Shown: in pieces, positions 13,283-15,318 of the stretch | How positions within the stretch are numbered: position 1 is the first letter of the stretch | Layout: every line of letters starts with the position of its first letter | Source of the DNA: a virus | DNA: 64,000 nucleotides | Virus record (IMG/VR): IMGVR_UViG_3300045988_081534 | Reading direction: 5' to 3' (one strand) | Made by a program: the position numbers and the translations under genes | The notes under the pieces: model-generated | What the model was told of the DNA's origin: nothing | The model's database searches: none | What the model saw: the letters and a program-made list of their open reading frames with translations, nothing else

Positions 13283-14461
13283 CTAGATATTTGACATTAA
13301 ATTATAAACATCTGTTCTTGCGGTTTCCATGCTTTTCCCAAATTTTGGAAACCAATGGTTTACATCTGCATGATTAGATCCTAATCCTAGCTTGTGACTA
13401 TCAGCATGACATAAAATAGTCGGAACGGTGATACCATTTAAAGTAGTGGTTCCCAATGGATTTATGTTATACATTTTACATAAATAAGCAGTAATTTGAC
13501 AAGCCTCTTCATAAATTTTGTTAAAATAATTTGCATCATTTAATCCATCTTCGCAAATTTCAAACTGAATCCATCCATTATTACAAGAACCTTTAGACCC
13601 AGAACCGCATCCCCAAGGACGATAATTCCATGGCATTGTCTATACTGTTGTTACTGTTCCATCAGCCAATTTACCAATCCAACAGTTTAATCCAGCTTGA
13701 ACAGATATATGATTCCAGTCATTCTTGCTAGTATTTTTTCCTAATTTATTTATTAAACTGGTGTAGTTAGGATCATTATCGCTTGGCTATACATATCTTT
13801 TTAAATTAGGATTATTTGCACCAGTACTATGCCATAAGATTCCTTTAACTTGCATGGTGCGTGTTTGTTTATAGCAAGTGCTATTTGTCATCATACATTG
13901 AAGTGGTTTATTGCTATCGCTATATTTCATTTTATTACCTCCTTCAATTACATTTGAAATGTTAGCAAATTTATTATAATACTATTGACCATAATTAGCC
14001 CTCTTTTGTTGCATAGAAAAACTCTAGTCTGAAGGTCTTTCAAACTAGAGTAATACCGCGGTAGAGGCTTCTGTGACAGAAGTGGCAGAAATCAAAATTT
14101 TAACTAAACTAGAAAAACTTGTAATTAACTCCTAATATAAAAAATCTAATTGAGTATTTAAATCTCCAATGGATTTGCCTCGACTTTGACAGAACTAAAG
14201 CAAATTTTGTTTTCTGCTCCAAAATGTCCATTGAGCCAATCCATATCCCGCTCCATCTTTTACAAAGTTTTTATACCTTCCATCATCAACTGCGGAGGTA
14301 TATCCTGCGTCGGTCATTTTTAATTTTTTTTCATAGGTGTTCTATAAGTTAATAGAATTAAGTCCACTTTCGGCATAAAGATTACCCATTAAACCGGCAA
14401 TTCCGCAATCACTAAAACCTTTGCCTTTAAAGTATTTCCAAATAATTTGAGCATTAGTCAT
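13283..14461 (-). CDS. modular endolysin, N-terminal phage-tail-lysozyme-like domain fused in-frame to a C-terminal amidase_2 domain, 9 TAG codons
   Basis: Full manual translation. MTNAQIIWKYFKGKGFSDCGIAGLMGNLYAESGLNS... then MKYSDSNK...VKGILWHSTGANN... then ORF 13283..13636 (CHADSHKLGLGSNHADVNHWF). One frame with no TAA/TGA over 393 codons. An internal RBS+ATG sits at 13930. Confidence 0.7.
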
Positions 14462-14463
14462 TT

Positions 14464-15318
14464 TTATTTTTTTGTAATGAAAGAGCTATATCCAGCAGAT
14501 TTTAATTTATCTTTTAGTCTTTCTGCATTTAATTTCACAGAGAAAGCACCTAATTGAACTTTATAAAAAATTCCTACTTTCTTGACATACCCGCTAAATC
14601 CTTTCTCTTCCAATTCCTTTAACATATTCTCTGCATTGGTTTTAGATAGAAATGCTCCTACTTGAACTCTGTAAAGAATTACCTCTTGTTTTTTCTTAAA
14701 ATATACACACATTACATTATCAACTGGTCTTGCATAAATTTGAGAAGTTTTTCTTTTCCCATCTATTAGTAATCTAGTAGATCCGCCTCCATCTAAATTA
14801 ATAGCATATTCTACTTTCAATTCAAGAAAAATTTGCTATAGGGCAGCATAAGCAAGACCTGGAGAATCTACGGTTACAATATAATAATTATTTTTATTCC
14901 ATCCAATACAAGTCCTGCGGGCTTTATAATCTAATTCTTTTCCATCTGTTATAACTACTTTTTTGCTATCTACAATTAATGCAGGATAAGCTGCAATAAA
15001 ATCTCTAGCGGTTTCATAATCTTTTAATGTTGTATATATAAGTGTTTTATTGCCGCTAATTGCAACTCCATGACGAAAATCAGACTAAATAACAGTTCCT
15101 TCGTCTTTATAACTAAAGCAAGTGTTGCCATTATTCATGGCAAAGAAACCTCCATTAGTAATAATATCTGGTTTAGTAGCCTGTCTTTTATAATAAGCAT
15201 CTGGAGTTTCCGTCGGTTGATTGCATAAGGCAAAGTCAATTTTTTCAATGTCTGTGAAGGGAATTGTTACAATTTGAACATAAGAATAGAGACTATGTTT
15301 TTTGATACTATATCCCAT
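14464..15318 (-). CDS. phosphodiester-glycosidase-like protein (NLDGGGST) with two C-terminal SPOR peptidoglycan-binding repeats, 2 TAG codons
   Basis: ORFs 15085..15318 and 14464..14820 are joined in frame across TAGs at 15085-15087 and about 14822. SPOR repeats YRVQVGAF...YKVQLGAF. Confidence 0.6.

What the first reader, a model, noticed from the sequence alone, without database searches (positions are those of the whole stretch)
13283..15318. Lysis cassette with TAG-dense, domain-fused enzymes
The lysis region contains a holin, an SLH-domain protein, a 392-aa endolysin that fuses a tail-lysozyme-like domain to an amidase_2 domain, and a phosphodiester-glycosidase/SPOR protein. Together the two enzymes carry 11 TAGs.

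Under standard decoding the endolysin would be truncated after 20 residues, and a separate amidase could start at the internal RBS+ATG (13930).

So TAG suppression would switch the product from nothing (or amidase alone) to the full two-domain enzyme. This is a plausible timing device for lysis.

SLH and SPOR domains point to a Gram-positive, S-layer-bearing (Clostridia-like) host.
Basis: partly seen in the sequence, partly recalled or inferred. Interest (0 to 1): 0.65.

Follow-up and report, generated by a model that had tools for sequence, protein, structure and literature searches.

The report
TAG-recoded phage lysis operon, three-module endolysin

Summary
The TAG codons and the domains are real, but the gene model was wrong. 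On the minus strand, with TAG read as sense, the endolysin runs 14461..13052 and is 469 aa, not 392. The "SLH protein" is therefore the enzyme's C-terminal wall-binding module.

TAG means Gln. Relatives carry CAA/CAG at the conserved TAG columns, and near-identical phages swap TAG with CAA/CAG. dN/dS is 0.05-0.07, and a tRNA with a CUA anticodon lies at 38301-38376.

The first TAG is codon 40, not 20. "Amidase alone" is impossible under standard decoding because two TAGs lie inside that domain. In 87 of 132 related loci the lysozyme and amidase modules are adjacent, in the same frame, with no TAA or TGA between them. This includes standard-code genomes.

Both internal ATGs (13930, 13267) and their AGGAGG motifs are conserved at the nucleotide level across the family. 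That predicts nested isoforms carrying 9, 3 and 0 TAGs.

The lysis-timing idea is already published (Borges et al.) and remains untested here. TAG is just as dense in two homing-endonuclease genes and in tail-fibre-like genes. The likely host is Oscillospiraceae. Verdict: a new member of a known kind.

The parts
15341..15368 (-). Terminator-like hairpin (12-bp stem plus U-tract) between the PhoH stop and the NAGPA-SPOR start
   Evidence: z = -2.8. Function is inferred.
14464..15318 (-). NAGPA (phosphodiester glycosidase) + SPOR gene, 284 aa, stop TAA. Has its own SD (AAGGAG). In-frame TAGs start at 15087 and 14838.
   Evidence: Codon 161 is Gln in 22 of 30 homologues.
13052..14461 (-). Full-length endolysin ORF, 469 aa, stop TGA, with 9 in-frame TAGs starting at 14344, 14197, 14134, 14047, 14026, 13984, 13789, 13642 and 13285. 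The start ATG has no SD and lies 2 nt after the NAGPA-SPOR TAA.
   Evidence: (469-aa homologues at 99% identity).
13967..14455 (-). Phage_lysozyme2 (PF18013) module, residues 3-165, with 6 TAGs
   Evidence: E=4e-35; phrog_20388 endolysin, E=3e-65.
13928..13944 (-). Predicted internal start site 1: AAGGAGGT (13944-13937), 6 nt, then ATG (13930-13928). This is the N-terminus of the amidase module.
   Evidence: Met is invariant in 44 of 44 genes, and the SD motif is kept although the encoded residues differ.
13403..13858 (-). Amidase_2 (PF01510) module, residues 202-353, with TAGs at 13789 and 13642
   Evidence: It aligns with PlyL (1YB0), including the catalytic Glu in FEICE.
13265..13285 (-). 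Predicted internal start site 2: TAG codon (13285-13283) overlapping AGGAGG (13284-13279), 11 nt, then ATG (13267-13265). This is the N-terminus of the SLH module.
   Evidence: In the SD window Glu codons are GAG 25: GAA 3, against 145: 199 elsewhere (p=8e-7).
13055..13267 (-). Single SLH module (71 aa, no TAG), which is the wall-binding end of the endolysin. The Pfam SLH match covers residues 422-454 (13198-13100).
   Evidence: 23.6 bits against a cut-off of 20.8; 10 of 14 relatives match; Sap SLH, 3PYW.
12720..13055 (-). Holin candidate, 111 aa, no TAG. Its ATG overlaps the endolysin TGA (ATGA) and it has no SD.
   Evidence: (a homologue lies directly downstream of the endolysin in most relatives; hydrophobic segment about 13-41). 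No family HMM match.
12680..12718 (-). Terminator-like hairpin (17-bp stem plus U-tract) directly after the holin stop
   Evidence: z = -6.1.
38301..38376 (-). Suppressor tRNA, anticodon CUA. It sits in an array of 31 tRNAs plus a tmRNA.
   Evidence: (Rfam tRNA, 59.8 bits; shares GCGGA/TCCGC acceptor pairs and G73 with tRNA-Gln-UUG).

Best explanation
SHOWN
This is the lysis operon of a large phage (related contigs are about 148 kb) that reads TAG as glutamine. The operon runs on the minus strand in this order:
- a terminator-like hairpin;
- a NAGPA-SPOR wall enzyme (2 TAGs);
- a 469-aa endolysin (9 TAGs) built from a lysozyme-like module, an Amidase_2 module and one SLH wall-binding module;
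- a small membrane protein, the holin candidate;
- a second terminator-like hairpin.
The phage's own tRNA(CUA) is encoded 24 kb away in the same window. Without read-through no catalytic product can be completed.

INFERRED, STEP 1
The endolysin gene has two conserved in-frame internal start sites. It should therefore give three nested products:
- the full-length enzyme (9 TAGs);
- amidase-SLH, 292 aa (3 TAGs);
- SLH alone, 71 aa (0 TAGs).
Single-SLH proteins work as trimers, so the short forms probably assemble with the long one.

INFERRED, STEP 2
The full-length start has no SD and sits 2 nt after the stop of the TAG-containing upstream gene. The holin start overlaps the endolysin stop. Both probably depend on translational coupling.

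INFERRED, STEP 3
Yield falls roughly as (read-through efficiency) raised to the number of TAGs. Wall-degrading activity should therefore appear steeply once suppressor tRNA accumulates. This protects against premature or leaky lysis, which is the Borges et al. model.
For: RECODING
- At TAG columns 40, 110, 139, 146, 225 and 274 the relatives carry CAA/CAG.
- Near-identical phages swap TAG with CAA/CAG at codons 199, 225, 299 and 322.
- dN/dS is 0.047-0.072 against TAG-rich relatives over about 455 codons.
- The frame has no TAA or TGA apart from the terminal TGA, against 28.8 expected.
- A tRNA(CUA) is present.
- All 59 minus-strand ORFs of at least 90 aa can be closed by TAA or TGA.

SINGLE THREE-MODULE ORF
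- 44 unique genes of about 470 aa at 51-99% identity were found. Many have 0 TAGs and sit in standard-code loci, including the isolate Oscillospiraceae bacterium 50-58.
- The TAG at 13285 aligns with Gln in Dulem virus 33: TIQEDDDMTQENF against NIqEDDEDMTDEKF.
- The database holds 469-aa homologues carrying PF18013 + PF01510 + PF00395.

INTERNAL STARTS
- The two Met codons are present in 44/44 and 42/44 genes. GGAGG clusters at those two junctions.
- The motif is kept while the encoded peptides differ: EGGNK, KEEMAK, QKGGGS, KGDGVK.
- There is a GAG bias in the SD window, p=8e-7.
- Stand-alone amidase-CBD genes begin exactly at site 1 (L107; Dulem virus 33).
- Type I and Type II internal starts in endolysins have been shown experimentally in other phages (PMC9430671, PMC12203907).
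- A single-SLH endolysin, LysBT1, trimerises through its SLH domain (PMC12285257).

GENE-CLASS PATTERN
- The endolysin has TAG at 9 of 23 Gln positions, while the replication genes have none.
- In the closest clade the endolysin has 39-48% TAG against 3-8% in its neighbours, p=1e-5 to 5e-4.

COUPLING
- Shown by the sequences.
Against: - No expression data exist. The timing role, the internal starts, the coupling and the heteromer are all inferred from sequence.
- TAG is as dense in two homing-endonuclease genes and two tail-fibre-like genes as in the endolysin.
- The NAGPA-SPOR gene is not TAG-enriched (p=0.28).
- In more distant recoded relatives the endolysin is not significantly richer in TAG than its neighbours.
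- TAG positions turn over quickly, and orthologues carry anywhere from 0 to 12 TAGs. That fits neutral drift as well as it fits design.
- If the SLH-only product and the coupled holin are made without suppression, holin would be produced before any catalytic enzyme. That is not an obviously useful order.
- The holin has no family-level match.
- No promoter could be assigned: promoter-like hits were 32 against 28 expected.
Confidence: 0.7

Rival explanations
1. Permissive drift, with no regulatory role. Once the phage carries a suppressor tRNA, CAA/CAG-to-TAG changes are nearly neutral in any gene expressed while the tRNA is present. A+T mutation pressure then lets TAG accumulate in late genes. 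Under this view the TAG load of the endolysin is a by-product and not a timing device.
For: - TAG is equally dense in homing-endonuclease and tail-fibre-like genes.
- TAG positions are poorly conserved and swap with CAA/CAG between phages of 91-99% identity.
- TAG number in orthologues rises stepwise from 0 to 12 as G+C falls from about 0.5 to 0.32.
- In the clade at 65-68% identity the endolysin is not significantly enriched.
Against: - In this clade 39-48% of the endolysin's Gln positions are TAG against 3-8% in its neighbours. The replication genes keep exactly zero. Something therefore separates the gene classes.
- Drift explains where TAG is tolerated. It does not rule out that TAG is also exploited.
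- Borges et al. found the same lysis-gene bias arising independently in two other lineages.
Confidence: 0.35
2. Three separate proteins. The TAGs at the module borders (13984 and 13285) act as real or leaky stops. The lysozyme, the amidase and the SLH protein would then be made as separate polypeptides from their own ribosome-binding sites, and the long ORF would be an artefact of reading TAG as sense.
For: - Each of the two downstream modules is preceded by a strong SD and an ATG.
- Stand-alone amidase(+CBD) genes exist in 36 related loci.
Against: - Standard-code relatives have sense codons at both borders and one uninterrupted ORF. In 87 of 132 loci the lysozyme and amidase modules are adjacent in frame with no TAA/TGA between them.
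- Seven further TAGs lie inside the catalytic domains, at Gln positions, so read-through is needed in any case.
- All three modules are in one frame, and the linkers contain no TAA or TGA.
Confidence: 0.05
3. A decayed, non-functional lysis gene, or an assembly or sequencing artefact.
For: Nine premature stops under the standard code.
Against: - Every interruption is a TAG, and there are no frameshifts.
- dN/dS is 0.05-0.07.
- The same gene with the same TAGs is found on several independent contigs (L004-L006; P0001 and P0002).
Confidence: 0.01

Closest known systems
TAG-to-Gln (code 15) recoded gut phages with recoded structural and lysis genes (Borges et al., bioRxiv 10.1101/2021.08.26.457843; crAss-like, Lak, Agate and other clades)
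   Same: - A phage-encoded suppressor tRNA.
- In-frame TAG in lysis, structural and homing-endonuclease genes, while replication genes stay in the standard code.
- Low G+C.
- Close relatives that span standard, TAG-poor and recoded states.
- The same proposed function, namely blocking lysis proteins until the code change takes effect.
   Different: - A different lineage. The best topoisomerase match in GenBank phages is 35% identical, and there is no nucleotide match.
- The lysis operon sits as an island among TAG-free replication genes.
- The recoded endolysin is a three-module enzyme with predicted internal starts.
Ply2638A of staphylococcal phage 2638A and Ms6 LysA (Type I internal start: second catalytic domain plus CBD made as a short isoform; PMC12203907, PMC3111421)
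   Same: The architecture is catalytic domain 1, then Amidase_2, then a wall-binding domain, with an in-frame SD+ATG at the start of the amidase.
   Different: - Here domain 1 is Phage_lysozyme2 rather than M23.
- The binding module is a single SLH rather than SH3b.
- A second internal start precedes the binding module.
- Isoform production has not been shown.
CTP1L, CD27L, Lys170 and LysIME-EF1 (Type II internal start: free wall-binding domain that assembles with the full-length enzyme; PMC4777826, PMC7098653)
   Same: An in-frame SD+ATG lies in the linker before the binding domain. These are clostridial or enterococcal hosts. Oligomerisation through the binding domain is expected.
   Different: The binding-domain fold is different (SLH). 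Here this site is combined with a Type I site in the same gene. The SD overlaps a recoded TAG.
LysBT1 of a Brevibacillus thermoruber prophage (Amidase + single SLH; PMC12285257)
   Same: An amidase followed by one SLH motif that acts as the wall-binding domain. Trimerisation through SLH into a three-prong spindle is expected.
   Different: LysBT1 has no lysozyme module, no recoding and no reported internal start. Its amidase type was not compared here.
Two-module amidase-SLH endolysins of standard-code phages (Dulem virus 33 'PGRP protein' XCD07637.1; Evtepia/Oscillospiraceae 'NatCom' phage endolysins)
   Same: They are 36-45% identical over residues 187-467, in one ORF. Dulem virus 33 has the same linker, QEDDDM.
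   Different: They lack the N-terminal lysozyme module and contain no TAG.

Membership tests
Stop-codon-recoded phage, TAG = Gln (genetic code 15) | Conserved genes are interrupted only by TAG, never by TAA or TGA | tested here: met
   The frame has 9 TAG, 0 TAA and only the terminal TGA. Shuffles averaged 28.8 TAA+TGA.
Stop-codon-recoded phage, TAG = Gln (genetic code 15) | TAG aligns with Gln codons in homologues | tested here: met
   CAA/CAG dominate at six conserved TAG columns. TAG swaps with CAA/CAG in near-identical genes. NAGPA codon 161 is Gln in 22 of 30 homologues.
Stop-codon-recoded phage, TAG = Gln (genetic code 15) | A phage-encoded suppressor tRNA with anticodon CUA | tested here: met
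   Located at 38301-38376 on the minus strand. Its Gln identity is only suggested by an acceptor stem shared with tRNA-Gln-UUG.
Stop-codon-recoded phage, TAG = Gln (genetic code 15) | TAG is not used as a terminator | tested here: inconclusive
   All 59 minus-strand ORFs of at least 90 aa can be closed by TAA (42) or TGA (17). For 2-3 genes a late TAG could still be the true stop. Only 64 kb of about 148 kb was seen.
Stop-codon-recoded phage, TAG = Gln (genetic code 15) | Read-through of TAG shown at the protein level | not testable with these tools
   This needs proteomics or ribosome profiling.
Endolysins with in-frame internal translation start sites (Type I and Type II) | An in-frame ATG with an SD at the proper spacing, located in an inter-domain linker | tested here: met
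   AAGGAGGT-N6-ATG at 13930 and AGGAGG-N11-ATG at 13267.
Endolysins with in-frame internal translation start sites (Type I and Type II) | The site is conserved at the same position across homologues, beyond what the protein sequence requires | tested here: met
   All 15 representatives below 90% identity keep both motifs. The encoded peptides differ. GAG:GAA is 25:3 in the SD window against 145:199 elsewhere, p=8e-7.
Endolysins with in-frame internal translation start sites (Type I and Type II) | The short isoforms are actually produced | not testable with these tools
   This needs tagged expression or N-terminal proteomics.
Pfam PF18013 Phage_lysozyme2 | HMM match above the curated cut-off | tested here: met
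   121.5 bits against 28.2, covering the full model 2-140.
Pfam PF01510 Amidase_2 (PlyL / T7-lysozyme type) | HMM match above the cut-off, and the catalytic Glu | tested here: met
   45 bits against 26. The FEICE Glu aligns with Glu90 of PlyL (1YB0) and with the mutated position in 2AR3.
Pfam PF01510 Amidase_2 (PlyL / T7-lysozyme type) | Zinc ligands (His, His, Cys/Asp) | tested here: inconclusive
   The PDB alignment does not cover the ligand positions. Candidate residues WHSTG and CHADSH exist but were not placed.
SLH domain (PF00395) | HMM match above the cut-off | tested here: met
   19.8 bits against 20.8 within the whole protein. As the isolated 71-aa module it scores 23.6 bits. 10 of 14 relatives match. 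The family profile hits the Sap SLH structure 3PYW, E=5e-4, with TR.E aligned.
SLH domain (PF00395) | Three tandem SLH motifs forming the pseudo-trimeric spindle | tested here: not met
   There is only one motif per polypeptide. A functional unit would need trimerisation, as reported for LysBT1.
Holin | A small membrane protein with a charged C-terminus, adjacent to the endolysin | tested here: met
   111 aa, hydrophobic segment about 13-41 and a weaker second one. A homologue lies directly downstream of the endolysin in most related loci.
Holin | Match to a described holin family | tested here: not met
   No Pfam or PHROG match.

The most novel reading that the evidence does not exclude
A code-gated, three-isoform endolysin. 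Two conserved internal starts make the full-length enzyme (9 TAGs, and its start is coupled to an upstream gene with 2 more), amidase-SLH (3 TAGs) and SLH alone (0 TAGs). The level of suppressor tRNA would then set both the amount and the ratio of the isoforms. This would give a steep switch, with yield falling roughly as read-through efficiency raised to the power 9-11. The TAG-free SLH-only chains would complete the three-SLH spindle that a single-SLH enzyme needs. A Type I and a Type II internal start in one endolysin gene, linked to stop-codon recoding, was not found in the papers searched.
Probability: 0.25. Interest if true: 0.6.

Novelty: new member of a known kind. Interest (0 to 1): 0.4.

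Why it matters
That recoded stop codons time lysis is still only a hypothesis. This operon is a compact test case for it. It has eleven TAGs in two wall enzymes, none in the neighbouring early genes, and a suppressor tRNA in the same genome. One gene should yield products that need 9, 3 or 0 read-through events.

The finding also shows how standard-code gene calling goes wrong in such phages. It shreds a three-module endolysin into fragments and invents a separate "SLH protein".

The endolysin family is common in Oscillospiraceae phages and prophages. It has two conserved internal start sites, which is relevant for anyone engineering these enzymes.

Tried and rejected
- Nucleotide search of 11 kb against GenBank phages gave no match. 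The best protein match of the topoisomerase was only 35% identical, so the lineage could not be named.
- Rfam at gathering thresholds found only tRNAs and the tmRNA. There was no ribozyme next to the suppressor tRNA.
- The promoter scan was not above chance (32 hits against 28.1 expected), so no promoter is claimed.
- The terminator-like hairpin inside the gene (14051-14021) carries two TAGs and looked like a possible translation-dependent attenuator. It is present only in the closest relatives and is lost at 85-91% identity, so I dropped it.
- The absence of TAG from the SLH module and the holin is not evidence of design. Neither has any Gln codons in this phage (for the holin). I estimated by hand, without running a test, that a TAG-free SLH module would arise by chance about half the time in the clade at 65% identity.
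- ARAGORN's label "tRNA-Pyl" reflects only the CUA anticodon. The alignments show Gln.
- Pseudogene and artefact readings were rejected.
- My first greedy ORF model placed spurious plus-strand ORFs at 25.4-29.3 kb. The real minus-strand genes there are TAG-free. They were left out of the statistics, which makes the enrichment test conservative.
- Structure prediction was not used, because the tool cannot model the multimers that would be informative.
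Full report
WHAT IS IN THE SEQUENCE

All genes in the region lie on the minus strand. Reading TAG as sense gives four adjacent features.

1. 15318..14464 is a 284-aa protein with a NAGPA phosphodiester-glycosidase domain (E=3.9e-20) and a SPOR domain (E=9.5e-16). It has in-frame TAGs starting at 15087 and 14838 and a TAA stop.
2. 14461..13052 is a 469-aa protein. It has Phage_lysozyme2 (residues 3-165, E=4e-35), Amidase_2 (residues 202-353, E=1.8e-11) and one SLH motif (residues 422-454). 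It carries nine in-frame TAGs and a TGA stop.
3. 13055..12720 is a 111-aa membrane protein with no TAG.
4. Terminator-like hairpins lie at 15368-15341 and 12718-12680 and bracket the set.

The count of 11 TAGs is correct. Three details in the finding are not.

- The "392-aa endolysin" ends on a TAG (13285). Treating that TAG as a stop while treating the other eight as sense is inconsistent.
- The first TAG is codon 40, so standard decoding gives 39 residues, not 20.
- From the internal ATG at 13930, standard decoding gives 47 residues (ORF 13787..13930), because TAGs at 13789 and 13642 lie inside the amidase domain.

The ORF is not a chance feature. Its frame has no TAA and only the terminal TGA. 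The other two frames hold 19-36 TAA and 9-20 TGA. In 20,000 shuffles the in-frame TAA+TGA count averaged 28.8 and never fell below 9.

TAG MEANS GLUTAMINE, AND THE PHAGE CARRIES THE MEANS TO READ IT

The window holds 31 tRNA genes and a tmRNA. One of the tRNAs has anticodon CUA and lies at 38301-38376. Its acceptor stem resembles that of the phage's tRNA-Gln(UUG).

I collected 80 related loci from IMG/VR and 49 from bacterial genomes. These gave 44 unique orthologues of about 470 aa.

- At the conserved TAG columns (codons 40, 110, 139, 146, 225, 274) the relatives carry CAA or CAG almost exclusively.
- Phages that are 91-99% identical swap TAG with CAA/CAG at codons 199, 225, 299 and 322.
- dN/dS against TAG-rich relatives is 0.047-0.072 over about 455 codons. 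The whole ORF is therefore under purifying selection and is not a decayed gene.
- NAGPA codon 161 is Gln in 22 of 30 homologues.

THE FUSION IS REAL AND INCLUDES THE SLH MODULE

It came out negative.

- In 87 of 132 loci the lysozyme and amidase modules are adjacent, in one frame, with no TAA/TGA between them. Only L080 has them out of frame.
- 36 loci have a stand-alone amidase, with or without a binding domain. 7 loci have the two modules in the reverse order.
- Many orthologues have no TAG at all and sit in loci that are well covered by standard-code ORFs and use TAG as a stop. One is the cultured isolate Oscillospiraceae bacterium 50-58.
- At the amidase-SLH border, the standard-code Dulem virus 33 protein reads TIQEDDDMTQENF where this phage reads NI(TAG)EDDEDMTDEKF. 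The TAG at 13285 is therefore a Gln codon in a linker.
- As an isolated 71-aa module the C-terminus passes Pfam's SLH cut-off (23.6 bits against 20.8). A family profile hits the SLH domain of B. anthracis Sap (3PYW), with the TR.E motif aligned.
- The protein database already holds 469-aa versions at 99% identity on contigs of about 148 kb.

AN EXTRA LAYER: TWO CONSERVED INTERNAL START SITES

A second one precedes the SLH module at 13267.

- The two Met codons are present in 44/44 and 42/44 orthologues. GGAGG clusters at exactly these two junctions.
- The nucleotide motif (A)AGGAGG is kept while the peptide it encodes changes: EGGNK, KEEMAK, QKGGGS, KGDGVK.
- In 15 representatives below 90% identity, Glu codons in the SD window before the SLH module are GAG 25: GAA 3, against 145: 199 elsewhere in the gene (p=8e-7).
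- Stand-alone amidase-CBD genes start at the position of site 1.

In-frame internal starts in endolysins are established experimentally in other phages. Type I sites lie between two catalytic domains (Ply2638A, Ms6 LysA). Type II sites lie before the binding domain (CTP1L, CD27L, Lys170, LysIME-EF1). This family appears to have both types in one gene. I did not find that combination described. LysBT1, a single-SLH endolysin, trimerises through its SLH domain. A free SLH isoform would therefore make structural sense here.

All of this is predicted from sequence. None of it has been shown at the protein level.

HOW THE CASSETTE PROBABLY WORKS

In this clade the cassette has only three SDs: at the NAGPA-SPOR start and at the two internal sites.

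- The full-length endolysin ATG has no SD and lies 2 nt after the NAGPA-SPOR TAA.
- The holin ATG overlaps the endolysin TGA (ATGA).
- More distant relatives have ordinary SDs at these two starts.

Without suppression, my reading is as follows. Ribosomes from the first SD stop at codon 78 of the NAGPA gene and never reach the endolysin start. Ribosomes from site 1 stop after 47 codons. Only the TAG-free SLH module, and perhaps the coupled holin, can be completed. With suppression, all products appear, and the full-length enzyme needs the most read-through events. This would make catalytic activity a steep function of suppressor tRNA level. The coupling and the steepness are my inferences.

HOW SPECIAL IS IT?

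The pattern across gene classes in the window matches published descriptions of recoded phages.

- The replication and nucleotide-metabolism genes that flank the cassette have no TAG: RNase H, topoisomerase II subunits, PhoH and ligase.
- The endolysin has TAG at 9 of 23 Gln positions (p=1.7e-4).
- A GIY-YIG homing endonuclease (8 of 20), an HNH endonuclease (5 of 11) and two tail-fibre-like genes (5 of 11 and 5 of 9) are as rich or richer.
- The NAGPA-SPOR gene is not enriched (2 of 10).
- In the closest clade the endolysin has 39-48% TAG against 3-8% in its neighbours. In the clade at 65-68% identity the difference is small and not significant.
- Across orthologues the TAG number goes from 0 (51-61% identity) to 2-5 (65-68%) to 6-12 (78-99%), and G+C falls along the same series.

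This matches the evolutionary route proposed by Borges et al.. It fits neutral accumulation in late genes as well as it fits selection for a lock. Borges et al. already proposed that recoding of lysis genes controls lysis timing, and they also reported a strongly recoded homing endonuclease.

HOST

The closest homologues are in Oscillospiraceae, Acutalibacter, Colidextribacter and Flintibacter genomes, and in Faecalibacterium, Acutalibacter and Oscillospiraceae phages. A Clostridia (Oscillospirales) host is well supported. Whether that host has an S-layer was not tested.

VERDICT

This is a new member of a known kind. The conserved double internal start, combined with a graded TAG load, is a modest new point worth an experiment.

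Noticed in passing
window 37242-55674 (minus strand): An array of 31 tRNA genes plus a tmRNA (48788-49103, tag DNDYFENYLAA), interspersed with small ORFs. Rfam also reports a 117-nt tRNA match at 46121-46237 that ARAGORN did not call. It may be an intron-bearing tRNA.
   Followed up: partly
window 4906-5817 and 26037-26747 (minus strand): Two homing-endonuclease ORFs are as TAG-rich as the endolysin. One is GIY-YIG, next to ThyX, with 8 TAG of 20 Gln positions. The other is HNH, with 5 of 11. Borges et al. reported a similarly recoded intron endonuclease.
   Followed up: partly
window 39829-44030 (minus strand): Four tail-fibre-like genes with 2, 5, 2 and 5 TAGs sit inside the tRNA array, just downstream of the suppressor tRNA region.
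   Followed up: partly
window 32625-36998 (minus strand): An 813-aa ORF has major-vault-protein shoulder and vault-repeat matches (E=6e-18). It lies next to a 506-aa DUF2828/DUF7788 protein. This is an unusual pair for a phage, and it borders the tRNA array.
   Followed up: no
window 19148-25419 and 30043-31597 (minus strand): Two auxiliary gene sets, all TAG-free. The RNA-repair-like set has Thg1-like, AAA_33 kinase, two metallophosphatases and RlaP-like genes. The NAD-salvage-like set has NadE, a NAPRTase-family protein, a PRPP-synthetase-like protein and a YqeY-like protein.
   Followed up: no
window 14021-14051 (minus strand): A 13-bp hairpin plus U-tract lies inside the endolysin gene. 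Each of its two arms contains a TAG codon (14047 and 14026). It is present only in the closest relatives and lost at 85-91% identity, so it is probably incidental.
   Followed up: yes
loci L093, L095, L103, L104, L110, L111, L124: In some Butyrivibrio, Lachnospiraceae and other genomes the same two catalytic modules occur in the reverse order, amidase first and lysozyme second. This shows free shuffling of modules in this endolysin family.
   Followed up: no
locus L026, codon aligned to window codon 81: One relative has TAG at a column that is TGG (Trp) in the other 43 genes. This could be a sequencing error, a deleterious variant or a rare non-Gln use of TAG.
   Followed up: no
loci L004-L007, L078 versus the other relatives: The NAGPA-SPOR gene lies upstream of the endolysin only in the closest clade. 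NAGPA+SPOR proteins of about 285 aa are nevertheless common on other contigs of 100-190 kb. This suggests a recently inserted accessory wall enzyme.
   Followed up: partly
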